Source: a virus (lineage: Duplodnaviria > Caudoviricetes). Taken from it: a stretch of DNA of 64,000 bases. How positions within the stretch are numbered: the stretch's first letter is position 1; every line of letters starts with the position of its first letter. The stretch lies in the IMG/VR virus record IMGVR_UViG_3300032321_001270, positions 141,189 to 205,188 of that record, one strand, 5' to 3'. Positions 9,127-22,190 of this stretch are shown here, in pieces. Made by a program: the position numbers and the translations under genes. The notes beneath the pieces are model-generated. The model saw only the letters and a program-made list of their open reading frames with translations. It made no database searches and was not told where the DNA came from.

Positions 9127-9338
9127 AAAACCTCCAATAAGTGAGCGACCGGGTCACCGTTTAGTATACCCAGTTGCTCACCGTTCACTTGCGAGTAGTT
9201 TCTTTCATGGCAGCTGTGGCTACTTCACACATGTAGCCCAATACATTTGCCAATCCAGCGAGTCCGTAGACGAAAACACATCCCGTATATTTGAGACTGT
9301 CTTCGACCCACTGAAACTCCCACTCGTTACCCGGGTTA
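9127..9338. promoter_or_regulatory. Divergent promoter region between leftward accessory operon and terminase
   Basis: Strand switch; TATACT -10-like hexamer on the minus strand at about 9164-9169. Confidence 0.45.
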
Positions 9339-11258
9339 TTGTGGTTCATGGTTAAACCTAATAAAGCAATTAAAGCGCTTGATATGCCCTCCGCGGGCGT
9401 ACAAACGCTTATACAAGAATTAATCTCAATCGACCCAACGGACGTGAAAGCTGTTCACGAGCGTGCGGTTGTTTTGCAGCATCTTGCAAACAAACATGCG
9501 TTTCCGTCGCTTGAACCCATTCTTCCGTTAGTCTTAAACCTTAATGGACGTCCGTACAGCCTACAGAACCATTTTCCGTTTGCCCCCCTATTCAGACTAC
9601 TCACCCCTAAAAATCAGGTGTGGTGTACAGGGCGGCAGGTATCAAAATCGACCAGCCTAGCAGCGCACGGAGTTGTAGTTGCCAACTCTATCCCGTTTTT
9701 CAAAACGTTATTTATCACGCCGCTCTATGAGCAGATTCGGCGTTTCTCGAACAACTATGTGCGCCCGTTTATTGACCAGTCGCCGGTGAAAGCGCAGTGG
9801 AGTGGTACGTCAACTGAAAACTCTGTGTTGCAGCGTTCGTTCAAGAACAATTCAATGATGTTGTTCAGTTTTGCTTTGTTAGACGCTGACAGAATCCGCG
9901 GTGTTTCCGCGGATCGTGTGTGTATTGACGAAGTGCAGGATATGGATCCAGATCACGTACCGATCATCCAAGAGACAATGTCTTACTCGCGCTGGGGGAC
10001 TAGTTATTACACGGGTACTCCAAAGACGCTCGATAACTTAATTTACGGTTTGTATAAACGATCCTCACAGGCCGAGTGGTTCATTCCGTGTCATTCTTGT
10101 AAACACTGGAATATACCAGCGCTTGAATATGACTTAAACGCAATGATTGGCCCATACAGCGATCACATCAGCGAGAAGTATCCGGGCACCGTATGCGCAA
10201 AATGTCAAAAGCCCGTAAGCCCACGACATGGTCGCTGGGTGCACAGATATCCCGAACGCCGCTGGCAGTTTGCCGGGTATCACGTACCGCAGATGATTCT
10301 GCCACTTCATTTCTCCGACCCTGAAAAGTGGTCTACGCTCTTGTTGAAACGAGAAGGCTTTGGGAACATGACCCAAGCCCAGTTTTACAACGAAGTTATG
10401 GGAGAAAGTGTTGATACCGGCCAGAAGCTCATCAGCGAAACTGATTTGAAAGCTGCGTGCGTACTAGACTGGGAAAACAAGAAAGAACCAGAACCCAAAT
10501 GCTTCGCAAATCTGTCGCATTACAAACACCGCATTTTAGCGGTCGACTGGGGCGGTGGCGGAGAAGCCGGTATTAGTTTCACCGTGCTGTCTGTGCTGGG
10601 ATTCCGGCCCGATGGAACAATCGATGTGCTATGGGCCAAACGGTTGCTCATTGGTGGCGACCACTTGGCTGAAGCCGTTGAATGTATGCGCTGGTCTAAC
10701 TTGTTTAATTGCGATTTTGTCGCTCATGATTACACCGGTGCAGGCACGGTCCGTGAGACGGTCATGGTGCAGGCAGGGTTTAATCTTGACCGAGTACTTG
10801 CGATGCGGCTCGTCCGTTCCGCGTCGCAAGATTTGATGGTGTATAAACCACCAACGGAAATCAATCACCGCGCACACTACAGCCTTGATAAGACGCGGTC
10901 GTTGCTGTACACGTGTCAGGCTATCAAACTAAAGCAGATCCGGTTCTTCCAGTATGACTGGTCGTCGCAGGACTCGCCGGGTTTGATATCAGATTTCTTA
11001 GCGTTGGTAGAAGAAAAAGCCGAATCCCGATTGGGCGGCGATATTTATACCATCACTAGAAACACACTATTGACTGACGACTTTGCGCAGGCTGTCAACT
11101 TGGGGTGCGCGGCGTTGTGGCACGTAAACAACGCGTGGCCAAACTTCGCCGAGATTGCCGGCGTTGCTCGACTAAGCGCGCGCGCCGTACAAGCCGAGAC
11201 GCCGATGGACGACGACTGGGCTGACGACGCAATCGGCAACAACTATTTTGGTTATTGA
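9339..11258 (+). CDS. terL: Terminase large subunit (lambda GpA-like, with Zn-ribbon insertion)
   Basis: GRQVSKST Walker A variant, RVCIDEVQD Walker B, GTPKT coupling motif, CHSC..CAKC Zn ribbon, ILAVDWG and DDFAQA nuclease acidic residues; true start may be a downstream ATG. Confidence 0.88.
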   Translation: MWFMVKPNKAIKALDMPSAGVQTLIQELISIDPTDVKAVHERAVVLQHLANKHAFPSLEPILPLVLNLNGRPYSLQNHFPFAPLFRLLTPKNQVWCTGRQVSKSTSLAAHGVVVANSIPFFKTLFITPLYEQIRRFSNNYVRPFIDQSPVKAQWSGTSTENSVLQRSFKNNSMMLFSFALLDADRIRGVSADRVCIDEVQDMDPDHVPIIQETMSYSRWGTSYYTGTPKTLDNLIYGLYKRSSQAEWFIPCHSCKHWNIPALEYDLNAMIGPYSDHISEKYPGTVCAKCQKPVSPRHGRWVHRYPERRWQFAGYHVPQMILPLHFSDPEKWSTLLLKREGFGNMTQAQFYNEVMGESVDTGQKLISETDLKAACVLDWENKKEPEPKCFANLSHYKHRILAVDWGGGGEAGISFTVLSVLGFRPDGTIDVLWAKRLLIGGDHLAEAVECMRWSNLFNCDFVAHDYTGAGTVRETVMVQAGFNLDRVLAMRLVRSASQDLMVYKPPTEINHRAHYSLDKTRSLLYTCQAIKLKQIRFFQYDWSSQDSPGLISDFLALVEEKAESRLGGDIYTITRNTLLTDDFAQAVNLGCAALWHVNNAWPNFAEIAGVARLSARAVQAETPMDDDWADDAIGNNYFGY

Positions 11259-12813: not shown

Positions 12814-13254
12814 TTATGGATCGCAGTAAGTGACAACGTTGCAGCCGCATTTGCTCGCTAGCTTTATGACGTCATGTGCGTAGACAGCCACGACCTTGTT
12901 TCGGTCTATGTGTCCGGCCGCAATGAGCGCTGTCAGCCCAAGCTTTGCAATTCCGCGGCGGCGATAGTCTGGGTCAACAAAACATTCCACGGTTTGTACA
13001 ATTGTCTGGCGCCCCTTGAATTTTTCAGGCCACGGGCGTGTACCCACCCAGCCAGCAAGTACATCATCCAGCCAGACTAGAGCTAGCGCCATTTCTGGGT
13101 GTGGGCCGGGTTCTGGCTCGCCGTACCGCTTGTGCAACTCTTTTTGAATCGAGCTGCTGCTGCCAGAATCAGGCCACGAAAGCCGCGACATAAGCGCGGT
13201 GACATCAATTAACGCAAGCTTGTTGATGTCTTTGATTTTGATAACAAATTCCAT
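12814..13254 (-). CDS. GNAT-family acetyltransferase
   Basis: Motif A: CFVDPDYRRRGIAKLGL; GGAGG RBS; TATAAT upstream. Confidence 0.75.
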   Translation of the reverse strand: MEFVIKIKDINKLALIDVTALMSRLSWPDSGSSSSIQKELHKRYGEPEPGPHPEMALALVWLDDVLAGWVGTRPWPEKFKGRQTIVQTVECFVDPDYRRRGIAKLGLTALIAAGHIDRNKVVAVYAHDVIKLASKCGCNVVTYCDP

Positions 13255-13288
13255 GGGCAGCCTCCGCGCTTACCCATGAATTATACAA

Positions 13289-13361
13289 AGCCGGCGGTCG
13301 GACTCGAACCGACGACCTACTGATTACAAATCAGTGGCTCTACCAACTGAGCTACACCGGC
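13289..13361 (-). tRNA. trnT: tRNA-Thr(UGU), no encoded CCA
   Basis: GCCGGTG acceptor stem, TAGCTCAGTTGGTAGAGC D arm, ACTGA-TTTGTAA-TCAGT anticodon arm, GGTTCGAGTCC T arm. Confidence 0.95.
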
Positions 13362-13367
13362 GTCACA

Positions 13368-13835
13368 TCAAACTGGTTCTGCTACCAACCCTGCGGGCCA
13401 GTAGTATGGCAGATCAATTGGCTCTAGCCAACCAAACCGCGAATAGTGGCGATAGTCTTTTCGCAGTAGGTTGCTGCGGTGACTCGCGTGAAATGTTTCG
13501 TCGCCCACCCACGGCGGGTAGCGATTAACTGTTATTTGTGCCCGCAACTGAACGTAGCTGCGCATGAATTGCGGGCACAGTGTGTCGTTGAAGCCGCGGT
13601 GAATCCACTCGCGGCAAACTACTATGGCGTATACAGTCAGCGCGGTTTCAAAACCCAACCACATTCGAACAGCCGGGTGATTGCGCCAGCTTGATGTGCC
13701 GGGCTCGTGCTCGCCGACTGGTACGCCCAAGCAGAGTAATATCTGCTTGCATTCAACCCTTTGCTTGCCTAGACGTTTATTATCCAAGCAGGCAGCCGAG
13801 GTTTTAAACCGCGGCAGCGGCAAAAAGGTTTGCAT
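13368..13835 (-). CDS. Pyrimidine-dimer DNA glycosylase/endonuclease V-like protein (MSMEG_6728 family)
   Basis: MQTFLP......LD.KRLGKQRVE..QIL, NHPAV.MW, H.SHRSNLLRKD, Y.WP. Confidence 0.85.
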   Translation of the reverse strand: MQTFLPLPRFKTSAACLDNKRLGKQRVECKQILLCLGVPVGEHEPGTSSWRNHPAVRMWLGFETALTVYAIVVCREWIHRGFNDTLCPQFMRSYVQLRAQITVNRYPPWVGDETFHASHRSNLLRKDYRHYSRFGWLEPIDLPYYWPAGLVAEPV

Positions 13836-13844
13836 GTATGCCTA

Positions 13845-14183
13845 TTAGTCCTCGTCATCAAAATTGTCGTTCTCGTCTACTTCAAAGTTTTCGTCATATG
13901 ACGGCTCGTCTTCATCTTCATCTTCATAGTCTTCGTCGTCGTCCCAGTTCTCATCGTCTTCATCGGTTTCTTCTTCGTCGTCTTCGTAGTCTTCGTCGTC
14001 GTCCTCTTCTTCTTCCTCGTCATCAAAGAAGTAGTTTGGTTTCGGCGTATCCATGAGACTGTCGTCGTCATCGTCTTCGTCGTCAACGAATTGCCATTCT
14101 TCTTCGATAAAATCGTCGTCAAGGCCGTCGTCACGTTTCGATTTAGCGTCACGGCGAAAAGAAGCTGGCTCAAGATAGCGCAT
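13845..14183 (-). CDS. Extremely acidic small protein
   Basis: More than half D/E with spaced aromatic residues (W, F, Y). Confidence 0.7.
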   Translation of the reverse strand: MRYLEPASFRRDAKSKRDDGLDDDFIEEEWQFVDDEDDDDDSLMDTPKPNYFFDDEEEEEDDDEDYEDDEEETDEDDENWDDDEDYEDEDEDEPSYDENFEVDENDNFDDED

Positions 14184-14185
14184 AA

Positions 14186-16819
14186 TTATCCGATTTCCCG
14201 GGCGGCGTTTAGATCAGACAACAAGTACTGGTCGCACAATTCTGTTGTTACAAGAATGCCGGGCATGCCGTGAACAATAGCTTCGCCTTTAAAAGCGTCG
14301 TTAGCCGTCAGCTGCTCGACAATCTGTAACCAGTTTGGTGGCAATGCTTTGCAACTATAAAAATAACGATCAATGGCCCTTTGATTCAACCACCAGTGTT
14401 CTTTTTTTCGCAAAATGTAATTTGTCGGTTGATCTTTTTTGCGCGGTTGCGGGAGTACGTCGATTTTTCCGGTTTGTATACCGGCGTAAACAGCGGCTAA
14501 AAACGCGGTATCAGCAGTGGTTTGCGTACTTAACCTGCCGGCGGCGTACTCCAGCTGGAACGTGGCGCCATACGCTGTGTTCAACCACTCCGAAACGTCT
14601 GCCAGTACCGCGAGGGTTGTGTTTTGGTCGAGGAGGCTGAGCCGCATCCTATTTTTGAGGGTGTGTTGGATGTACGCCGGCAGAACGTAACGTAGAACGG
14701 AAAAATCAGTTGATTTGCTGCTCGCGCGACCGTCAACCACTTGCCACCCGTAACTTTGCGCGGCGGCCGCGGCGATTGAGGATAGTTTTACGAGTAGCGG
14801 GCGGTTGTGGCATTTCGGAACGATTGGACTCACGCTTGTATCGTCAAACGTGCTCGATACAAATGTTGGCCACAGGCATTCGTTTGTTTTGTCGTAGATG
14901 TGTTTGCTGACGTCGGCGCGGCGCAAAATAGCTGCCTGCAAATGCTCGCAGCCCAGCATCTCACCAATTTTTACGGCAGTGTCGAAGTTTTCGCCTGTGA
15001 CGGCGGTAGCAACATGTTCGCGGCGCAAGATCGGGTTGATTAGCCCGGCGGCAACTGAAGCAAAAATACTCCACGTGAACGCATTCTCAGGACTGGGTGT
15101 GAGTAACGTTCGGATGCTTGGCGGGGCGACTTTTACCGGTTCAGGAAACGTCACGCGGCGGTGTTTTTTTGTAGGCGACAGCGTCTCTGCTGTTGTGCCG
15201 TCGTTTTTAATTTCGTAGTTAGCGAAACGAAAAACGTTTGCTTTGTCATCCCACCCAAGCCGATTTGAAACGTTGATGAATTCCGGGTTGTTCAGCTCTA
15301 TGGATATTAAGTGGCTGCGCCGATTCCATGTTCGATCAAAAACCAGCAGTTTGCGATACTGCGCGACGTGTGCTTCCGCAAACGCTAATAATCCCATGCG
15401 CTCAATTTTGTTGGCGCTGTCTGAGAACGGGAACTCTTCGCCGGCAAGATAGATGACGCCGCTGTACGTTTTTTCGCCGTCGTCTGAATGCACGATCTTA
15501 TTGATGACGACGTTCGCCGAGCATATGCGTTGATTCGTCACGCTCCACCAGCCGTCGCTACGCGGAGTGACCAACCAGCGCCACGACAGTTTTGGCGTCG
15601 TGGCCGACGGCATGGTGTTCACCTGCGACAGCACGCGATCAGCAAATCCGGCAGAAAACCGTTCTGATATCTTTTTCAGAAACACGGTCAGTTTGTCCGG
15701 CGTGATCGTCAGGCGGGAGGCGAACGAGTGCGCGGCAATCTCGCTCATACTACTCATGGCGCGGTACAAGCTTGTTTGCCATGTTTCTGCGTTTACGCGC
15801 ATGGCGGTGAGTCGGCTCAGCGCGTCTGTACTTAGCCGGCGCTGTAACCGCTGCGTCTGCGACATAATCGTTACGTAACCGCGGGCTGTGCAGGCGCGGC
15901 TTACAAGTTCTGGATTTATGGCGCGACTCTGGAAGATTCGGCTCAATGGCGGAAAAGAATGCCAGTTCAACCCGTAGCTGTTGGCTTCATGTCCGGTATA
16001 GCTGCACATTAACGGGAGCAGGGGTAGTCCACGCTGCAGGTGCTCGCATTGCATGCTCAGCGCCCAGAACGGATTGTCGACAATGAACTGGGTATTTTTT
16101 AACAGCTCTCCGACTGGTTGCAGCGCGGTCTTGAGCAGGAAGTACCCGGCTTCTGGTCGGCGGCGTTTGTACCCGGTGGTTGGCACGAAAGTTTGTTTGG
16201 CTTCAAACTCTTCGGTGTATTGCACAAGTAAGACGCCGGTAAGCCGTCCGGGCAAGTCGTAATATGGAAAGACAAGACTCGTGCCTTTTGGGCGGACGCT
16301 TCGCGGTTTTGCCCTGCCAAGCGCGCGGCAGATCTTTTCAATCTGATCCGGGTACGCCACGCCAACTAGTCCGGCCGCGTTGATCTCATGTTGCACGCCC
16401 AGCTCGCGGAGGCGGCACGCGATTAAGTCGTCGCTGTGGTTCCATATCTGCGCTTCGGCGTCAAACCAAAAGTTCTCTATTTCACGGTGCCGGGTTATGG
16501 CGCGGTCGTACTCGCCCGCCATATTGTCTTTTTCGCCGTGATTTACGAGATTTAGGTCAGCGAACCTGTTAAGCGCGTCGGGTAGGCTTGTATTCCATAA
16601 TGACGCGCCAAAGGTTATGATATCTCCATGGACTTGACACGAATTACAGTGCAGCCATATACCGTCTGTGGCTAGGTCGTCAAACAGGTGCAGAGTATTC
16701 TGTTGACATAACGGACAATTCACGACGGCCGGAAAAGTCACATTTTCTGGCGCAACGCCCAACGCCGATAGGGCGCTCACATGGTGTTGTCGGCTGACTA
16801 AACAGGTAGGAAAACCCAT
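14186..16819 (-). CDS. Primase/helicase-like protein: N-terminal Zn finger, DnaG-like core, DUF927-like C-terminus; catalytic motifs appear degenerate
   Basis: CPLC..CNSC zinc-binding domain; LVFPYYDLPG; LGWD....F; no intact TOPRIM E/DxD or Walker A seen. Confidence 0.55.
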   Translation of the reverse strand: MGFPTCLVSRQHHVSALSALGVAPENVTFPAVVNCPLCQQNTLHLFDDLATDGIWLHCNSCQVHGDIITFGASLWNTSLPDALNRFADLNLVNHGEKDNMAGEYDRAITRHREIENFWFDAEAQIWNHSDDLIACRLRELGVQHEINAAGLVGVAYPDQIEKICRALGRAKPRSVRPKGTSLVFPYYDLPGRLTGVLLVQYTEEFEAKQTFVPTTGYKRRRPEAGYFLLKTALQPVGELLKNTQFIVDNPFWALSMQCEHLQRGLPLLPLMCSYTGHEANSYGLNWHSFPPLSRIFQSRAINPELVSRACTARGYVTIMSQTQRLQRRLSTDALSRLTAMRVNAETWQTSLYRAMSSMSEIAAHSFASRLTITPDKLTVFLKKISERFSAGFADRVLSQVNTMPSATTPKLSWRWLVTPRSDGWWSVTNQRICSANVVINKIVHSDDGEKTYSGVIYLAGEEFPFSDSANKIERMGLLAFAEAHVAQYRKLLVFDRTWNRRSHLISIELNNPEFINVSNRLGWDDKANVFRFANYEIKNDGTTAETLSPTKKHRRVTFPEPVKVAPPSIRTLLTPSPENAFTWSIFASVAAGLINPILRREHVATAVTGENFDTAVKIGEMLGCEHLQAAILRRADVSKHIYDKTNECLWPTFVSSTFDDTSVSPIVPKCHNRPLLVKLSSIAAAAAQSYGWQVVDGRASSKSTDFSVLRYVLPAYIQHTLKNRMRLSLLDQNTTLAVLADVSEWLNTAYGATFQLEYAAGRLSTQTTADTAFLAAVYAGIQTGKIDVLPQPRKKDQPTNYILRKKEHWWLNQRAIDRYFYSCKALPPNWLQIVEQLTANDAFKGEAIVHGMPGILVTTELCDQYLLSDLNAAREIG

Positions 16820-17993
16820 GACAAATATCCCGCTCGATCAGTCACACGATGTCAGTGGTTGCGAAACGCACCGGCTTACCACTCTGTACCCGCAGCCCGA
16901 CTTTGTTAAAAGTGCCGCGCATGACAGACTCACCGGCGGCTCTGAGTTAGCACGCCATTTGTATGCTGATCAGCGCAATAAACTTTATCCGTGTCACACG
17001 GCGCCCGCAACATGGATGTCCGCGCTTTTCTTCGCGGACAAGCAAGCGCAGTTTGACCCGCGCGACGCCGACACTATTAAAACTAGGATACACCAAGCGG
17101 CTGAATATTTTGGCATTGCCGGTGCTGTGGCGGAACTAGAAGAAAAGGTCGCCGCGGCCAACAGCCATGACATTAATGCGCTGCCAGACTCCGAGTTTGC
17201 GATTGTCTGGGTCAGCGACATGGGCGGTAAAGAACGGCACTGGCCGCTACGCAACGCCTCCGAAGTCAAGTTTGCCGCAGCCCACTTCAAGGAATTTCGC
17301 GACAACTTTGTGTTTGCCGACCGTCATATCATCGCCAGCAAAATCCTCGAAAAGGCGGCTGAATACAGCGCAGATGTTTCTGAGGCTGACGGCTCGCTTG
17401 AACTTGCTGCCGGCCTTGGTGCTTGTGCCGCCAAGGTTGCCAGCCAAATGCTTAAAGACCGCGTACGGCTCACCCAACGGCAGCACGCCGATCTGGCCGC
17501 TGAGTTGTCCAAGTTGGCTGAGGTCATTGACCAGAACCCCGAAAGGGCTCGCGAGGTTGAGACCCGGTTGAAGTTGGCGAGCGCGGTCGACAATTTTGAT
17601 AGGAATACCCAGCTTTACCGGCTATACGACGCCGGCGGGCTTCCACGGCCTGAAGAAGTATTATTTGCAATCACCGAAAAGGTAGCCCGCGAGTTCATGA
17701 ACCAGAACGTCGAAACCACGACCGGCAACGTCTACGCCCTCGAAGATCTTGAGAAGCTGGCGGTTGAAGACGTGCGTGAGTGGCTTGGCGACGAGTTCGC
17801 TGATGCCGTGAGCGCCGGCGGAGTGTACATGGACCGGGACAAGCTCGCGGCCATTGTGCCCACGCTTGACCGCGGTATGGCCGCCACGCTGGACCGACTG
17901 GTGCAGCAGAAGACGGCCGGCGCTGTTGTTAAGTCAGCGGCGGCGGACAGTCTTCTTTCGCTTGAGCGCCTTCGCGAACTTGCCCGGGGCTGA
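16818..17993 (+). CDS. Hypothetical protein, possible internal head/virion protein rich in K-x-A motifs
   Basis: LYPCHT and RHWPLRNASEVKFAAAHF motifs; AGGA RBS; 391-aa ORF. Confidence 0.75.
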   Translation: MTNIPLDQSHDVSGCETHRLTTLYPQPDFVKSAAHDRLTGGSELARHLYADQRNKLYPCHTAPATWMSALFFADKQAQFDPRDADTIKTRIHQAAEYFGIAGAVAELEEKVAAANSHDINALPDSEFAIVWVSDMGGKERHWPLRNASEVKFAAAHFKEFRDNFVFADRHIIASKILEKAAEYSADVSEADGSLELAAGLGACAAKVASQMLKDRVRLTQRQHADLAAELSKLAEVIDQNPERAREVETRLKLASAVDNFDRNTQLYRLYDAGGLPRPEEVLFAITEKVAREFMNQNVETTTGNVYALEDLEKLAVEDVREWLGDEFADAVSAGGVYMDRDKLAAIVPTLDRGMAATLDRLVQQKTAGAVVKSAAADSLLSLERLRELARG

Positions 17994-18467
17994 AAGCTTT
18001 TTCTTAGGTTTTCGCTTTGGCTTTGGTTTCGACTGCGCAAACAATTTTGTAATACGCCCAAGCACGGCGTTCGCCGTCGTTTTTTTGTAGTCGACTTTGT
18101 CCCACGCTTGGTGCGTTTCTTTTGCCAGCCCGCGGCGGCTCGCTTCAAGGTCGTGAAACAGGCTGTACTGTGGGTTGTACCACTTGTAAGCGCTGCCCTT
18201 GCCCTTGCAGCTTACGTAGTCGCAAACCGAGATTTCAAAAACAGTGCTTGTCACACTGTCCATGATGATCTGCGCGCCGGCAATAAACCCGGTTGCGCGC
18301 GGGTCATCTTTTTGCGGACGCGGTCCGATGCGAGACGCGTCGATTATTACGGCGTTCCGCCCATAACAATCCCAGCAGTATTTTTCGGCGCTATCAATCG
18401 TGTACTTGCACGCTTGGAAAAAGCGTGCAAGTTGTTCAAACCCGCAGTGGTCAATTTTTGTCGACAT
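17934..18467 (-). CDS. Conserved phage hypothetical protein
   Basis: KYCWDCYG.NA, V.EISV.DY, YKWYNP motifs recalled from large phages; basic tail overlaps the plus-strand gene end. Confidence 0.65.
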   Translation of the reverse strand: MSTKIDHCGFEQLARFFQACKYTIDSAEKYCWDCYGRNAVIIDASRIGPRPQKDDPRATGFIAGAQIIMDSVTSTVFEISVCDYVSCKGKGSAYKWYNPQYSLFHDLEASRRGLAKETHQAWDKVDYKKTTANAVLGRITKLFAQSKPKPKRKPKKKLSAPGKFAKALKRKKTVRRR

Positions 18468-18696
18468 GTGCGATATGTTTTATCCGTTTGACAAGTTCGC
18501 GCAACGCCGCAAGCGCTGGGTTTTCGCGAACCTTGGGCGTGAGAGCGCCCGGGTCGATGTTTTGAGATGAGAGGCCGCTAAGTTCTTCTTGGCGGCAAGA
18601 TTCTAAATAGTGATGCCAGTTATCGTAGGCGTCACGGTCTTCGTCTGATTCGTACGGTCTGTATGGTTCGTCAAGAAGTCTGTCGTTCCAACCCAT
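18451..18696 (-). CDS. Small hypothetical protein
   Basis: Overlap-coupled to csrA. Confidence 0.55.
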   Translation of the reverse strand: MGWNDRLLDEPYRPYESDEDRDAYDNWHHYLESCRQEELSGLSSQNIDPGALTPKVRENPALAALRELVKRIKHIAHVDKN

Positions 18697-18865
18697 CTTT
18701 CTTTTTGTCCTCGTTTTTGACTAATAGTTCACCGCGCACGATGGACGTGGCTTTGGGCGCGGTTAAGCCGATCTTTACTCTATCGCCGGTAATCCCCAGC
18801 ACTTTGACGACAATGCCGTTACCAATTACGACTTCCTGTTCCTTCTTCCTTGAGAGTACAAGCAT
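18671..18865 (-). CDS. csrA: Carbon storage regulator CsrA/RsmA
   Basis: MLVLSRK...V.IG..I.V.VL...GDRVKIG..APK...I.R.EL signature. Confidence 0.92.
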   Translation of the reverse strand: MLVLSRKKEQEVVIGNGIVVKVLGITGDRVKIGLTAPKATSIVRGELLVKNEDKKKDGLERQTS

Positions 18866-18875
18866 GATGGCTCCA

Positions 18876-19547
18876 TCATTCTGTTGCAGATTTTTGCAGT
18901 AACTCAACCACGGACTTCGTGTTGCCGTTTTGCAAATCTAACGCCGCGAGTTGTTTGATAAGTAATCCAGTTTTCAAACGAATTGACTGGTTAATGTCTT
19001 CTGTTTTTCCGGCCTCTACGTCATACACAGCGTTGAACATCTCAGGATCATCCGAGAAGTCTTGAATGGAGGGCGACACGCGGGCGGCTCTGAGTGCCAC
19101 GCGCAGGATGTCGGGGGCGTTGATGATTCCTTCACTGTCGAGCACGGAACCGATGTAGGCGCGTATCTCATCTGTAAACGGTTCCGGGTCTTCATCGTCG
19201 GGCGGGGAGATTAGCAAGGCTTCTGTAATCCCCCACGCCACTTCTTCGGCGTCAGCGGGATCCCACATATCTGGTCGGTATGTGTCGCCGCCTAGAACGT
19301 TGCAAAAATTAATGAAATCGGGCAGGCTTTTAAAGAACTGATCTGTGGTGAGAAGCTGAATGGCGACCAGCAGCTTGTCGAGTGACAACTGGGGAAGCTC
19401 GACGTCAAACTCTTCTTCAATTTCGAGGGTGATGGTGGCTGGGTCCCAGTGCAACGCTTCCATCCCAAATTTGTCAAGAAACAGCGTCAGTAGTACTGTC
19501 GCAAACGTCTCCCGGCTCTTCCACGCTTCCTGCATTATTTTTGACAT
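18876..19547 (-). CDS. Hypothetical protein
   Basis: Acidic helical protein; start uncertain (19547 or 19535). Confidence 0.7.
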   Translation of the reverse strand: MSKIMQEAWKSRETFATVLLTLFLDKFGMEALHWDPATITLEIEEEFDVELPQLSLDKLLVAIQLLTTDQFFKSLPDFINFCNVLGGDTYRPDMWDPADAEEVAWGITEALLISPPDDEDPEPFTDEIRAYIGSVLDSEGIINAPDILRVALRAARVSPSIQDFSDDPEMFNAVYDVEAGKTEDINQSIRLKTGLLIKQLAALDLQNGNTKSVVELLQKSATE

Positions 19548-20019
19548 TGAGGCCAGCCCTGTTCTCAATCAGCCGCACACCCCGGTGGCGCAGCTCGACT
19601 AGATTATACGCGATTGTCTCTAGCGGCGTCCTTGGAAGAGTCGTAACCCGTTCTCCAGACTCAAGATCCGTCCAGCCAAATTGCCCGCTCCACGTGGCAA
19701 ACCGCCCATCCGCGAAAGCGATCTGTTGGGCGCAGCACGGGTGGTTGTCTGCCGTCTCAGGCCAGTCTTCCATGTGCCGCGACGCCCACATCAGCTCTAG
19801 CAGCAGCAAGCGCTGTTCTGCAGACAGAAACGCAAGGTTTTCCATCATGTCAGCGATCAGGATGTAAAACACCGCATCTTCGGCAAGCGGGGCGTCTGGA
19901 GCCGGGGCCGTCTTTTTCATTACAGCCGAAAAAAGATTGCGTATTTGCAACTTGCTAAGTTTTACGACCCGCATTACCATATCGAGCGTCAGGTCTTTTT
20001 TCACTTCGGAGGTAGCCAT
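19474..20019 (-). CDS. Hypothetical protein with possible N-terminal HTH
   Basis: LTLDMVMRVVKLSKLQIRNLF helix-turn-helix-like; 3' portion of track ORF 19474..20241. Confidence 0.55.
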   Translation of the reverse strand: MATSEVKKDLTLDMVMRVVKLSKLQIRNLFSAVMKKTAPAPDAPLAEDAVFYILIADMMENLAFLSAEQRLLLLELMWASRHMEDWPETADNHPCCAQQIAFADGRFATWSGQFGWTDLESGERVTTLPRTPLETIAYNLVELRHRGVRLIENRAGLNVKNNAGSVEEPGDVCDSTTDAVS

Positions 20020-20296
20020 GTCTGTTTCCATCATCGACAACCTTTCTAACATTACGTCTGGTCGCGCTGAATTCGTCGTCAGCGCCAATGGTATCGAAGA
20101 ACTTCTGTCGTCGGCAACTGCAAACGTCGTGCTGCAAAAAGCTGCGGAAGCCGGACTGAACCGCCCGGGGGTTTCGAGCGCGAGCGGCCCATATCCGGTT
20201 GACGCTGACGGCAAGACCGACGACGAGTTGATGATGGGCAAGCGCGGCCCGGTCGCCGGTTACCGTCGAGATTTTGTTATCTTAGCTTCGATTTGA
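20018..20296 (+). CDS. Small hypothetical protein (92 aa)
   Basis: Strong GGAGGT RBS at 20008-20013 before ATG 20018. Confidence 0.7.
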   Translation: MSVSIIDNLSNITSGRAEFVVSANGIEELLSSATANVVLQKAAEAGLNRPGVSSASGPYPVDADGKTDDELMMGKRGPVAGYRRDFVILASI

Positions 20297-20635
20297 TCAG
20301 GCGTCGTCTGGCCGGTCGACGATGAGCATATCCGTAGGTTTGCCGTTATCAAATCCGACAACGGCAAAACATATTGGTGTGCCGCAATCTATATCGAGTT
20401 TCTTGGCGGCAGCGTATGCGGCGCGGCGGCTCATTGACGTTGCCGCGTGGCACGCCGCGGTAAGTGTGCCAAATAGGCCGACAGGCACGTCGTCCATTGT
20501 GTGCCGCCAGACGACAAGATAGCCCGACAGCGCGTGCTTCTTTTGGTACTCGGGGCCGTACGGATTCTTTTTTGGCGTACCGGAGGCGCGCGACGCGCGC
20601 CTCTTCTTTTGCGTTTTTGATATTTTTGTCGTCAC
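20297..20635 (-). CDS. Hypothetical protein, basic N-terminus
   Basis: ORF abutting the convergent gene; 4-nt overlap with upstream gene. Confidence 0.6.
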   Translation of the reverse strand: MTTKISKTQKKRRASRASGTPKKNPYGPEYQKKHALSGYLVVWRHTMDDVPVGLFGTLTAACHAATSMSRRAAYAAAKKLDIDCGTPICFAVVGFDNGKPTDMLIVDRPDDA

Positions 20636-21105
20636 TCTTCTACTCCAAACGTGTCGATATGCGCCAACCGGGCGCAGTAGAATTCTGCGACCATCCCGGC
20701 TGCTTTTTGAAACCGCTTGACGATATCCGGGATCACTTGCTCATTAAAGACGCGAATGATCACCTTACGAAACTTCGCGATTGCTTCTGGTGTGTAGCCT
20801 TCTTCGCGGGCTTTTTCTGCCGCCCGGCGGACATCTTGATTGCCGTCGAGCTGGACTTGGAGGAAGGCTGGGTTAAGAAATTCAATAATGTGGCCATACG
20901 TCTGACGAACTTCGTACGGGTACGTAACGTCAAACACGCCGGGCCCGGGCCATCGTTCTCCATCGATTATCTCCTCGGATAAATATCTCAGTTTGCCGAG
21001 CGTCCACCCGAACGCAGCGGCATCGTCATTTGGGTCAGCCATTACAAAAGCTGGTTTTGGACCAGCCGGTGGCTTGTCGAGTTTTGCTTTGCTTTTGCGT
21101 GCCAT
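20632..21105 (-). CDS. Hypothetical protein
   Basis: MARKSK start chosen; track ORF extends to 21177. Confidence 0.6.
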   Translation of the reverse strand: MARKSKAKLDKPPAGPKPAFVMADPNDDAAAFGWTLGKLRYLSEEIIDGERWPGPGVFDVTYPYEVRQTYGHIIEFLNPAFLQVQLDGNQDVRRAAEKAREEGYTPEAIAKFRKVIIRVFNEQVIPDIVKRFQKAAGMVAEFYCARLAHIDTFGVEE

Positions 21106-21224
21106 TGTGTAATAGCTAAGGAAAATTGGAAAAGGTTTAGTTCTGACTGCGTAGCCGGGAATCACATCAGCCGTCATAAGACGAATAGATGTGTCCCGAC
21201 TACACAGTCAGAACACGCCGGAAA

Positions 21225-21599
21225 TTAATCTCCGGCGGTGCAGGCAAGGTACGCATGATATTGCGCAGTAACCTCAATACGAGGATCGATCTCTTTAAAC
21301 ACTGGCTCATCCTCCATGGATGCCAGTTCACCACGCAGCAATGCCGCAGTGTACTCGTTGTACAACCGCGCCATATGCCCGCGTAACTTTCGCGTGGTGC
21401 GCTTAAGCACACGTTCCCGCAGAAACGCTGCTCGCTCCCAGAAGTTCGCTAGCCCCGAGATTTCATCTGCGAACTTCTCTGCAGTCCTGTCGAACAAACG
21501 ATGCGCCTTTTCATCTACGATCTGAAACTCCGGCGCTCGTTTCTTGCAACGAGTGGTGACTGCTAGGCGGATTTTCTCCGCGGTAGCCGAAAGAGACAT
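21225..21599 (-). CDS. Hypothetical protein preceded by a long structured leader
   Basis: AAGGGAG RBS; 124-aa ORF. Confidence 0.65.
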   Translation of the reverse strand: MSLSATAEKIRLAVTTRCKKRAPEFQIVDEKAHRLFDRTAEKFADEISGLANFWERAAFLRERVLKRTTRKLRGHMARLYNEYTAALLRGELASMEDEPVFKEIDPRIEVTAQYHAYLACTAGD

Positions 21600-21604
21600 G
21601 CGTT

Positions 21605-21634
21605 AACTCCCTTGTAACGCGTGGAAAGGGAGCT
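21605..21634 (-). promoter_or_regulatory. RBS-sequestering hairpin
   Basis: Minus strand AGCUCCCUU...AAGGGAGUU 9-bp stem (one G.U) that buries the SD of 21225..21599. Confidence 0.55.
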
Positions 21635-21778
21635 ACTGATACGATACAGTAGCGACAATAAATATGCCGCGTTTTTGGGAAAAATTTAGCGTCGTCTGGA
21701 ATTCGCGAATTGCGAACATCGTTGCAATTAAACGACTTACGGCGCAAAGTATCGTGTTCTAGAAAATGGAAAATGCAA

Positions 21779-21857
21779 CCGCCGCCCCGCGCTGACCTAG
21801 GGCATGGAGCCCGTTGGCCGCGTGGAACGCAGCCGTTCAGTCAGCGCAGGGCGGCGG
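21779..21857 (-). ncRNA. Candidate structured RNA (three-way junction)
   Basis: 18-bp outer stem enclosing two hairpins; both plus-strand C.A mismatches are G.U on the minus strand. Confidence 0.55.
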
Positions 21858-21887
21858 AAGATCGCAGCCTACACGTGGCAGGTGCGG

Positions 21888-22190
21888 CTAGAACGTGAGC
21901 TGTACAGTTTGCCCGCCAGCGTTCACATAGACCACGCGAATTTTACTGGCGTCAAGTAACGATTTGAGAAGTGTCTTTTTCTCGGAACTCATTCCGGCAA
22001 GGCACGATTTAATTTGCGCCATCGCACTTCGTTGCTTTTCTTGTTTTTTACGGGCACATGCGCCACACCCGCCAGCCTCAGTGCGGAACAAATCTTTTTT
22101 GTTGAACAGGCAGGGAATGCTTTGCGCGTATTCCGGGTTGTTCATCATTGAGATAATTGTACTGTCTTCAAGTACTACCATGTCGCGCAT
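21888..22190 (-). CDS. Small CxxC protein, possible fibre assembly chaperone
   Basis: GGCGACA motif; last gene of the structural operon; similar pattern to 23004..23372. Confidence 0.6.
   Translation of the reverse strand: MRDMVVLEDSTIISMMNNPEYAQSIPCLFNKKDLFRTEAGGCGACARKKQEKQRSAMAQIKSCLAGMSSEKKTLLKSLLDASKIRVVYVNAGGQTVQLTF

What the first reader, a model, noticed from the sequence alone, without database searches (positions are those of the whole stretch)
16808..20030. Two divergent gene pairs whose start codons share one CATG tetramer
Seen: at 16817-16820 CATG gives both the ATG of the minus-strand primase-like gene and the ATG of the plus-strand 391-aa gene (AGGA RBS inside the partner CDS). 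The same occurs at 20017-20020 (plus gene with GGAGGT RBS; minus gene MATSEV with GGA upstream). Two of only three plus-strand genes in the window show this zero-spacer head-to-head layout. Inference: each promoter and 5'UTR lies within the opposite gene, so the transcripts are antisense over both RBSs. That would form a mutually exclusive (excludon-like) switch, possibly early versus late.
Basis: partly seen in the sequence, partly recalled or inferred. Interest (0 to 1): 0.72.

Follow-up and report, generated by a model that had tools for sequence, protein, structure and literature searches.

The report
Head-to-head phage genes sharing CATG
In a 205-kb uncultured phage that reads almost entirely in one direction, each of the three backward-facing genes in this window begins on the same four letters (CATG) as a forward-array gene; dozens of related phages keep this layout, and it probably sets the paired genes against each other, though no expression data exist.

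Summary
Both CATG junctions are real. At 16817-16820 the two ATGs are the first possible starts of a 391-aa plus gene and an 877-aa primase-like minus gene. CATG is kept in 38 of 38 distinct relatives at 60% identity or more, and in about half of those at 31-45%; most of the rest that could be read clearly have spacings within a few bases.

At 20017-20020 the suggested downstream start (MVM) is not the family's start. The stretch above it stays open, its length changes only in whole codons, and five relatives lack that ATG. The exact start (20019, 20031 or 20034) stays open.

The terminase gene (ATG 9348) shares CATG 9347-9350 with a conserved 54-aa minus gene; relatives have CATG or CATATG. 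So all three plus genes in the window show the layout.

A promoter-like motif lies on the plus strand 32 nt before the 92-aa gene, inside its partner's codons. Three synonymous sites under it never vary.

The layout matches noncontiguous operons and excludons. Mutual exclusion and early/late timing are untested, and plain genome compaction is a serious rival. This scan has reported CATG head-to-head pairs in other genomes before.

The parts
9185..9349 (-). 54-aa small gene with a hydrophobic stretch that may span the membrane and an E-[FL]-Q-W motif; partner of the terminase gene
   Evidence: ORF and translation. tblastn finds it (35-89% identity) in the relatives that share the CATG junction, and direct reading shows the E-[FL]-Q-W motif with changed codons in distant L172 and L185.
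9347..9350 (.). Junction 3: CATG shared by the terminase ATG (9348) and the 54-aa gene ATG (9349-9347)
   Evidence: As first tallied over 55 distinct loci: CATG 21, CATATG 28, CAT-N4/N11/N22-ATG 3, none 3. At least five picks (L155, L180, L149, L159, L160) took an upstream ATG; three of them (L155, L159, L160) visibly read CATATG, so they are probably CATATG. In L172, by my reading of the printed frames, both ATGs are the first start after an in-frame stop.
9348..11258 (+). Terminase large subunit gene; no Shine-Dalgarno sequence before ATG 9348 (alternative TTG at 9339)
   Evidence: PHROG 675, E 1e-54. SD score 0. The N-terminus aligns from this ATG in relatives.
14186..16819 (-). 877-aa gene: zinc ribbon plus a primase-like region (Toprim / DUF927 by language-model features only)
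   Evidence: Weak Zn_ribbon_DnaG hit in Pfam. Atlas feature score 0.96 to Toprim_2 / Zn_ribbon_DnaG / DUF927 clusters. The N-terminus MGFPTCL... is conserved, with an in-frame stop 6 codons upstream.
16804..16811 (+). RBS of the 391-aa gene (AGGTAGGA), written in codons 4-6 of the minus gene
   Evidence: Nearly invariant, including synonymous sites. In distant relatives the same place reads GGGAGG, which gives S-S-L in the minus protein.
16817..16820 (.). Junction 1: CATG shared by ATG 16818 (+) and ATG 16819 (-)
16818..17993 (+). 391-aa gene of unknown function, mostly helical, from a very large and well conserved metagenomic family
   Evidence: 1152 clusters at E<=0.001. AlphaFold model pLDDT 93. 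No PDB fold match. No PHROG or NCBIfam hit.
19474..20019 (-). 181-aa gene of unknown function; start at 20019 (alternatives ATG 20031 or 20034, which would overlap the plus gene by 14 or 17 nt)
19953..19985 (+). Promoter-like site for the 92-aa gene (TGCTAAGTT, 16 nt, CATATCGA), lying in codons 12-23 of the minus gene (counted from ATG 20019)
   Evidence: 13 of 17 matches at the fixed spacing; one of only 3 plus-strand matches in 205 kb. The synonymous sites of GTA, AGC and AAG are invariant in 31 distinct relatives, against a mean of 1.7 bits elsewhere.
20008..20013 (+). RBS of the 92-aa gene (GGAGGT), which encodes T-S in the minus protein
20017..20020 (.). Junction 2: CATG shared by ATG 20018 (+) and ATG 20019 (-)
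20018..20296 (+). 92-aa gene of unknown function with a small alpha/beta fold; abuts the stop of the next minus ORF (20297)
   Evidence: 63-91% identity in 36 distinct relative sequences. Model pLDDT 89. No named fold match.
21659..21691 (-). Nearest strong minus-strand promoter-like site (CGCTAAATT, 16 nt, CATATTTA), in a gap between genes
   Evidence: It is one of 9 strong copies, 8 of them in gaps of my rough gene call.

Best explanation
This window holds three conserved 'backward' genes set into a one-directional jumbo-phage genome. Each is joined start-to-start with the forward-array gene next to it, so the two start codons share CATG.

Shown: both starts are real and are conserved together. 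The RBS of the 391-aa and 92-aa genes is written in the first codons of the partner. At the 92-aa gene a promoter-like site also lies there.

Inferred: the minus strand is read in long transcripts that cross each backward gene in antisense, or starts inside it. Each backward gene fires from a promoter buried in its partner. The two RNAs are then complementary across both translation start regions, and the polymerases collide. As a result, expression of the backward gene and of the minus genes downstream of it oppose each other, as in noncontiguous operons and excludons.

What the switch times (for example packaging genes against replication genes) is not known.
For: The genome is about 98% minus strand.

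Junction 1 is conserved as CATG in 38/38 distinct loci at >=60% identity and in 14/29 below 45%. Most of the other distant loci have starts within about 30 nt of each other, for example CATATG, CAT-A-ATG and GTG-N-ATG. A few (L074, L090) could not be read reliably.

Junction 2: the minus frame is open in 21/21 sequences, while the other two frames carry stops in 19/21 and 10/21. Spacer lengths of 37, 40, 46 and 49 nt all keep the frame. Five relatives lack the downstream ATG, and in L045 and L054 the next possible start cuts or lies beyond the conserved LKLDKLQ motif.

Junction 3 (terminase / 54-aa gene) reads CATG or CATATG in at least 49 of 55 distinct loci.

The plus genes carry an SD and their minus partners do not.

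A promoter-like match lies at 19953-19985, with invariant synonymous sites under it.

No conserved plus-strand terminator follows the 391-aa gene, and no minus-strand promoter-like site lies inside the plus genes. Both fit read-through.

Known analogues: noncontiguous operons, including four in phage 80alpha (PMC11034616), and excludons (PMC12288877, PMC7154746).
Against: There are no transcript, TSS or protein data of any kind.

No plus-strand promoter was found for the 391-aa gene or the terminase gene.

The promoter-like motif is itself only inferred from nine copies, eight of them in gaps between genes, and the site-2 match is weak (13/17).

The junction drifts among relatives (CATG, CATATG, TATG plus an upstream ATG, overlaps of 7-30 nt). 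So selection seems to act on tightness, not on the shared tetramer.

The functions of the paired proteins give no obvious reason for antagonism.
Confidence: 0.45

Rival explanations
1. Plain genome compaction. The phage has lost nearly all spacer DNA, and a divergent pair squeezed to the limit ends up with abutting or overlapping start codons. Once there, both ATGs are held by ordinary purifying selection. The layout then has no regulatory meaning beyond two genes that happen to share DNA.
For: Coding density is 91% even with rough gene calls. Among same-strand neighbours the commonest spacing is a 4-nt overlap. The backward genes are also packed tightly at their 3' ends: stop 20296 abuts 20297, and 17993 overlaps 17934. 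The junction drifts in small steps among relatives (CATG, CATATG, CAT-N-ATG), as expected if only tightness matters.
Against: The fourth backward gene in the same genome keeps a normal 190-nt non-coding spacer. About 46 same-strand gaps exceed 100 nt. So compaction is not absolute. Even under this view the transcripts must still overlap, so some interference is hard to avoid.
Confidence: 0.33
2. Abutting leaderless (or nearly leaderless) transcripts. Both RNAs begin at or next to their ATGs and run apart, so the RNAs hardly overlap. The two promoters overlap on the DNA instead, and only one polymerase can sit there at a time. This would apply mainly to the terminase / 54-aa pair, and perhaps to the SD-less minus partners.
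For: The terminase gene has no SD. A TANNNT hexamer sits at a fixed 5 nt (CATG type) or 7 nt (CATATG type) before its ATG in 19 of 55 loci. By eye, many further loci carry near-consensus forms such as CATAAT at the same place. The minus partners at all three junctions lack a good SD.
Against: The hexamer coincides with conserved N-Y-N codons of the 54-aa protein, so it cannot be separated from coding constraint. No -35-like partner was found. The 391-aa and 92-aa genes have clear SDs, so their RNAs are not leaderless. About a third of this phage's genes lack a recognisable SD anyway.
Confidence: 0.15
3. Start-codon misassignment. The minus genes really begin further downstream, leaving ordinary divergent spacers.
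For: The ATG at 19980 is present in 31 of the distinct relatives found. Public gene callers place the primase-like start downstream in L024 and L026. The minus partners lack an SD.
Against: Site 1: a stop lies 6 codons upstream, there is no other conserved start, the N-terminal peptide is conserved, and the zinc ribbon begins at residue 35. In L024 and L026 the called starts cut off the zinc ribbon, while the CATG ATG is in frame. Site 2: the frame is open, indels keep the frame, the L-T-L codons change synonymously, and five relatives have no MV ATG. The invariance of ATG-GTA there is explained by the overlapping promoter-like box.
Confidence: 0.05

Closest known systems
Noncontiguous operons (Staphylococcus aureus menE operon; four cases in phage 80alpha; PMC11034616)
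   Same: One gene lies in the opposite direction inside a run of same-direction genes. The resulting antisense overlap is expected to give mutual repression. A phage example is on record.
   Different: Here co-transcription of the flanking minus genes across the backward gene is only inferred. The backward genes are core genes (terminase; a 391-aa protein with over a thousand 50%-identity clusters), the spacer is zero, and three such genes occur in one genome.
Excludons (Listeria; reviews PMC7154746, PMC12288877)
   Same: Divergent neighbours whose transcripts overlap, giving transcriptional interference and RNase III cleavage and hence mutually exclusive expression.
   Different: Classic divergent excludons have a spacer and a long 5' UTR that runs over the neighbour. 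Here the coding sequences themselves overlap, and each RBS is written in the partner's codons. No transcript data exist.
Face-to-face promoter switches of coliphages P2 (Pe/Pc) and 186 (pR/pL) (my own knowledge; not tested here)
   Same: Promoters fire towards each other over a short distance, so that one direction suppresses the other.
   Different: Those switches are driven by repressors encoded on either side and decide between lysis and lysogeny. No regulator-like protein was recognised here, this phage shows no sign of lysogeny in the window, and only one of the six expected promoters has a candidate.
Short divergent gene overlaps in prokaryotes (331 divergent against 12,737 co-directional overlaps in 58 species; phase 123:213 commonest; PMC2174442)
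   Same: A 2-nt CATG overlap is in phase 123:213, the commonest phase of this rare class.
   Different: In surveys these overlaps are scattered and often suspected to be annotation errors. Here three occur in one genome and are conserved in dozens of related phage contigs (down to about 31% protein identity at junction 1).

Membership tests
Noncontiguous operon | One or more genes transcribed opposite to the other genes of the unit, embedded between them | tested here: met
   Single plus genes at 9348-11258, 16818-17993 and 20018-20296 are flanked on both sides by minus genes with no spacer.
Noncontiguous operon | The flanking same-direction genes are co-transcribed as one RNA across the antisense gene | not testable with these tools
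   Only indirect hints. No minus-strand promoter-like site lies inside the plus genes, and the nearest is at 21659-21691. Only weak terminator-like hairpins lie on the minus strand.
Noncontiguous operon | Mutual repression of the overlapping transcripts | not testable with these tools
   Needs expression data.
Excludon (divergent type) | Neighbouring genes on opposite strands, pointing away from each other | tested here: met
Excludon (divergent type) | Transcripts overlap at their 5' parts | tested here: inconclusive
   Geometry forces an overlap for any RNA that carries an SD leader (391-aa and 92-aa genes). A promoter-like site at 19953-19985 would give a leader of about 26 nt that is complementary to the partner's first codons. 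No RNA ends are known, and leaderless RNAs would avoid overlap.
Excludon (divergent type) | Opposite expression of the two genes | not testable with these tools
   No expression data.
Face-to-face promoter switch (P2 / 186 type) | Two mapped promoters firing towards each other | tested here: inconclusive
   One candidate plus-strand promoter was found at site 2. No candidate was found for any minus partner inside the plus genes.
Face-to-face promoter switch (P2 / 186 type) | DNA-binding regulators encoded on either side that set the switch | tested here: inconclusive
   No Pfam, PHROG or NCBIfam family was found for the 391-aa, 92-aa, 181-aa or 54-aa proteins. The folds of the 391-aa and 92-aa proteins match no named regulator. 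Absence of a match does not exclude one.
Short divergent coding overlap, phase 123:213 | Both start codons real and sharing bases | tested here: met
   Site 1. Terminase junction. Site 2: met for the family; the exact start in the window could be 20019, 20031 or 20034.

The most novel reading that the evidence does not exclude
A large lineage of uncultured 200-kb phages uses zero-spacer head-to-head junctions as built-in timing switches. The promoter and ribosome site of each backward gene (terminase, a core 391-aa protein, a 92-aa protein) are encoded within the first codons of the opposing gene. Firing one direction then shuts the other, separating for example packaging from replication without any dedicated repressor.
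Probability: 0.25. Interest if true: 0.65.

Novelty: new member of a known kind. Interest (0 to 1): 0.45.

Why it matters
Divergent coding overlaps are the rarest kind of gene overlap and are often dismissed as annotation errors. Here three of them are shown by comparison to be real, and junction 1 is old enough to be kept at about 31% protein identity. They involve core genes of a large family of uncultured jumbo phages.

There is a practical point too. Public gene callers misplace at least one of these starts, cutting the zinc ribbon off the primase-like protein.

If the antagonism is real, it would be a repressor-free way for a one-directional phage genome to keep a few genes on a separate schedule. 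The junctions are small enough to test with a two-colour reporter.

Tried and rejected
1. Sigma-70 consensus scan of 13000-22000: no more sites than in shuffled sequence, and none at the junctions.

2. A full-width weight matrix built from the seven strongest promoter-like sites, then used to scan: over-fitted to their spacers. It gives poor scores upstream of all plus genes, so only the two-block match was used.

3. Search for a plus-strand promoter for the 391-aa gene. The perfect TTGACA hexamers at about 16703 and 16633 are simply the reverse of Cys-Gln codons of the zinc ribbon and have no -10 partner. The invariant TATGATATC at 16614-16622 fits the motif's second block (6/8) but has no first block. 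This remains open.

4. Conserved plus-strand terminators after the backward genes: not found. The hairpin at 18064 is not conserved.

5. Function of the 391-aa protein: Pfam (only a sub-threshold DUF6582 hit), PHROGs, NCBIfam, PDB by sequence and by fold, BFVD, and tblastn against cultured phages all gave no name.

6. Function of the 92-aa protein: Atlas, PDB and AlphaFold DB clusters gave no name.

7. Cultured relative: Salmonella phage Arash is the nearest by terminase (29% identity), but its terminase is co-directional with its neighbours, so it does not share the layout.

8. Codon-position periodicity cannot tell the two strands apart at these junctions. In the CATG phase the third codon positions of both strands coincide, so I used frame openness, stops in relatives and in-frame indels instead.

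9. A larger palindrome around the CATGs, such as an operator, looked for by eye only: none convincing.
Full report
**Where the window lies.** The window is the last 64 kb of a 205,188-bp IMG/VR virus record. A rough codon-usage gene call on the whole record gives about 210 genes on the minus strand and 6 on the plus strand. Only four of the plus calls look credible: a thioredoxin-like gene outside the window, the terminase large subunit, a 391-aa gene, and a 92-aa gene that the rough call missed.

**Site 1 (16817-16820).** The sequence reads cc-CATG-ac.
- The 877-aa minus ORF (14186..16819) and the 391-aa plus ORF (16818..17993) each begin at the first start codon after an in-frame stop.
- In 22 related viral contigs (64-85% identity for the 391-aa protein), CATG is present in every one.
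- The minus N-terminus, MG[FL]PTCL..R.HH..ALSALG, is conserved. A stop lies six codons upstream, and no other conserved start lies before the zinc ribbon at residue 35.
- A profile search brought in 80 loci down to 31% identity. Among 70 distinct ones, CATG with the minus ATG in frame with a 730-925-aa homologue is found in 38/38 at >=60%, 3/3 at 45-60% and 14/29 below 45%.
- Most of the others are minor variants: CATATG, CAT-A-ATG, a GTG one base from the ATG, or overlaps and gaps of up to about 30 nt. A few distant loci (for example L074 and L090) could not be read reliably. I found no relative with a clearly normal divergent spacer.
- In two public assemblies the gene caller put the minus start 45 or 186 nt downstream. 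The CATG ATG is in frame there, and the skipped stretch encodes the zinc ribbon.
- The minus protein's residues 3-7 are the reverse complement of the plus gene's Shine-Dalgarno sequence: AGGTAGGA gives F-P-T-C here, and GGGAGG gives S-S-L in distant relatives.

**Site 2 (20017-20020).** The plus gene has GGAGGT five bases before ATG 20018 and encodes a 92-aa protein that is 63-91% identical in relatives. The minus ORF runs from 19474 and has in-frame ATGs at 19980 (MVM), 20019 (MATSEV), 20031 and 20034. Four results count against that.
- The frame between 19980 and the plus ATG is open in all 21 sequences, while the other two frames carry stops in 19 and 10 of them.
- The length of this stretch takes the values 37, 40, 46 and 49 nt, all in the same frame.
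- The L-T-L codons in it change synonymously.
- Five relatives have no ATG at the MV position. In L045 and L054 the next possible start cuts or lies beyond the conserved LKLDKLQ motif.

In the wider clade, CATG (minus N-terminus METS...) is the commoner state. The window's closest relatives have TATG, but they keep an ATG 9-12 nt further into the plus gene. The starts therefore overlap across the family. In the window, 20019 cannot be told from 20031 or 20034; the ATG at 20031 has a weak AAGG before it. One caveat applies. In this phase the third codon positions of both strands coincide, so substitution periodicity cannot separate the strands inside the plus gene. I relied instead on stops in relatives (L003, L015, L036) and on the uninterrupted, better conserved plus frame.

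**A third junction.** The terminase large subunit (PHROG 675, E 1e-54) has ATG 9348 within tt-CATG-gt. The complementary ATG opens a 54-aa minus gene (9185-9349) with a hydrophobic segment and an E-[FL]-Q-W motif. The small protein is conserved (35-89% identity), and in distant relatives the motif is kept with different codons, so it is a real gene. As first tallied over 55 distinct loci, the junction reads CATG in 21 and CATATG (starts abutting, no overlap) in 28. The rest are CAT-N4/N11/N22-ATG, or loci where my script picked an ATG too far upstream. At least five picks were of that kind: two counted as CATG and the three counted as 'none'. Three of these five visibly read CATATG, so they are probably CATATG. 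In L172, by my reading of the printed frames, both ATGs are the first start after an in-frame stop. So all three plus genes in the window have the layout, not two of three.

**A control.** The fourth plus gene of the genome also has C before its ATG. Its upstream 190 nt are not conserved as coding sequence, contain stops in relatives, and read TATG in three of seven relatives. A chance CATG therefore looks different from the three conserved junctions.

**Signals.** Of 135 ATG genes of 80 aa or more, 64% have an SD match of four or more bases, against 12% at random positions. The 391-aa and 92-aa genes have one. The terminase gene and the minus-partner starts at 16819 and 20019 have none, while the 54-aa gene and the alternative start at 20031 show only 4-base matches.

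In the gaps between genes I found a two-block motif, AGCTAAATA, 16 nt, CATATCTA. Nine strong copies occur, all on the minus strand. Eight lie in gaps of my rough gene call and one at a called gene's edge, and many sit just after terminator-like hairpins. One copy lies in the window at 21659-21691. That it is a promoter is my inference.

At a threshold of 13 of 17 matches, the plus strand of the whole genome has three hits. One is at 19953-19985, ending 32 nt before the 92-aa ATG. It lies in minus-gene codons M-V-x5-L-S-K. In 31 distinct relatives the synonymous sites of GTA, AGC and AAG never change, while third positions elsewhere in the gene average 1.7 bits. The five relatives without MV were not in that set. 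This explains why the ATG at 19980 is so well kept without being the start.

I found no comparable site before the 391-aa gene or the terminase gene, and none on the minus strand inside any plus gene. An invariant TATGATATC at 16614-16622, covering synonymous sites of codons 66-68 of the primase-like gene in 39 distinct sequences, remains unexplained. The terminase ATG is preceded at a fixed 5 or 7 nt by a -10-like hexamer in many relatives. That hexamer coincides with conserved N-Y-N codons, so a leaderless terminase RNA is only a possibility.

**What the genes are.**
- The 877-aa protein resembles zinc-ribbon / Toprim / DUF927 primase-type proteins by language-model features only (score 0.96). 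Pfam gives just a weak zinc-ribbon hit.
- The 391-aa protein belongs to a family of 1152 clusters at 50% identity. It folds confidently (pLDDT 93) into a mostly helical structure with no named match. It has no relative in cultured phages.
- The 92-aa protein is a small alpha/beta fold without a named match.
- A csrA gene (18671-18907; Pfam E 1.5e-19) lies between junctions 1 and 2.

**Reading.** The anatomy is that of a noncontiguous operon or excludon: lone antisense genes inside a co-directional array, here with zero spacer, so that each partner's translation start region is complementary to the other RNA. The literature describes such units, including in phage 80alpha, as mutually repressing (PMC11034616, PMC12288877, PMC7154746). 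It also reports that divergent overlaps are strongly under-represented: 331 against 12,737 co-directional overlaps in 58 species (PMC2174442). I rate the antagonism reading at 0.45. Nothing about transcription is measured, and the junction drifts by a few bases among relatives, which fits selection for tightness or plain compaction (0.33). Abutting leaderless transcripts with overlapping promoters are a third option, mainly for the terminase pair (0.15). Misassigned starts are unlikely (0.05).

**Novelty.** This scan has already reported CATG head-to-head pairs in other genomes, mostly prophage accessory cassettes. What differs here is three junctions in one genome, core genes, and conservation across dozens of related uncultured jumbo-phage contigs. 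I file it as a new member of a known kind.

Noticed in passing
window 21659-21691 (-); genome positions 48308, 49133, 50653, 53154, 53535, 54880, 63434, 97473 (-): A two-block promoter-like motif (AGCTAAATA, 16 nt, CATATCTA). Nine strong copies, all on the minus strand. Eight lie in gaps of my rough gene call, and many follow a hairpin plus a T-run and TTAGCTAT. It may be the phage polymerase's own promoter class.
   Followed up: partly
window 16614-16625: Synonymous sites of codons 66-68 (GAT ATC ATA) of the primase-like gene are nearly invariant in 39 distinct relatives (third-position entropy 0.17-0.29 bits against a mean of 1.44). This points to an unexplained nucleotide-level element about 195 nt upstream of the 391-aa gene.
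   Followed up: partly
window 18671-18907 (-): A phage csrA gene (Pfam CsrA, E 1.5e-19) lies between the two junctions of the finding. Both plus-gene ribosome sites contain GGA, but that is true of any SD, so no link is shown.
   Followed up: no
window 16818-17993 (+): The 391-aa protein belongs to a very large, purely metagenomic family (1152 clusters at 50% identity). Its model is confident (pLDDT 93) and matches no solved fold. It is a core jumbo-phage protein of unknown role.
   Followed up: partly
L024:4816-5002 and L026:2986-3031: Public gene calls start the primase-like gene 186 and 45 nt too far downstream, cutting off the zinc ribbon. The in-frame ATG of the CATG junction restores it.
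   Followed up: yes
genome 52149-52700 (outside the window; locus L187): The thioredoxin-like plus gene lies between a minus-strand terminator/promoter-like region (about 52668) and the start of a 497-aa minus gene (52148). That gene's leader may therefore run antisense through the whole plus gene. The plus gene has a -10-like TGGTATAGT about 50 nt upstream, with similar hexamers in several relatives.
   Followed up: partly
window 9328-9347: The terminase gene has no Shine-Dalgarno sequence. A -10-like hexamer sits at a fixed 5 nt (CATG type) or 7 nt (CATATG type) before its ATG in many relatives, so the RNA may be leaderless.
   Followed up: partly
window 13289-13835 (-): A tRNA-Thr (TGT) gene at 13289-13361 sits next to a pyrimidine-dimer DNA glycosylase gene at 13368-13835 (Pfam Pyr_excise, E 3e-18).
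   Followed up: no
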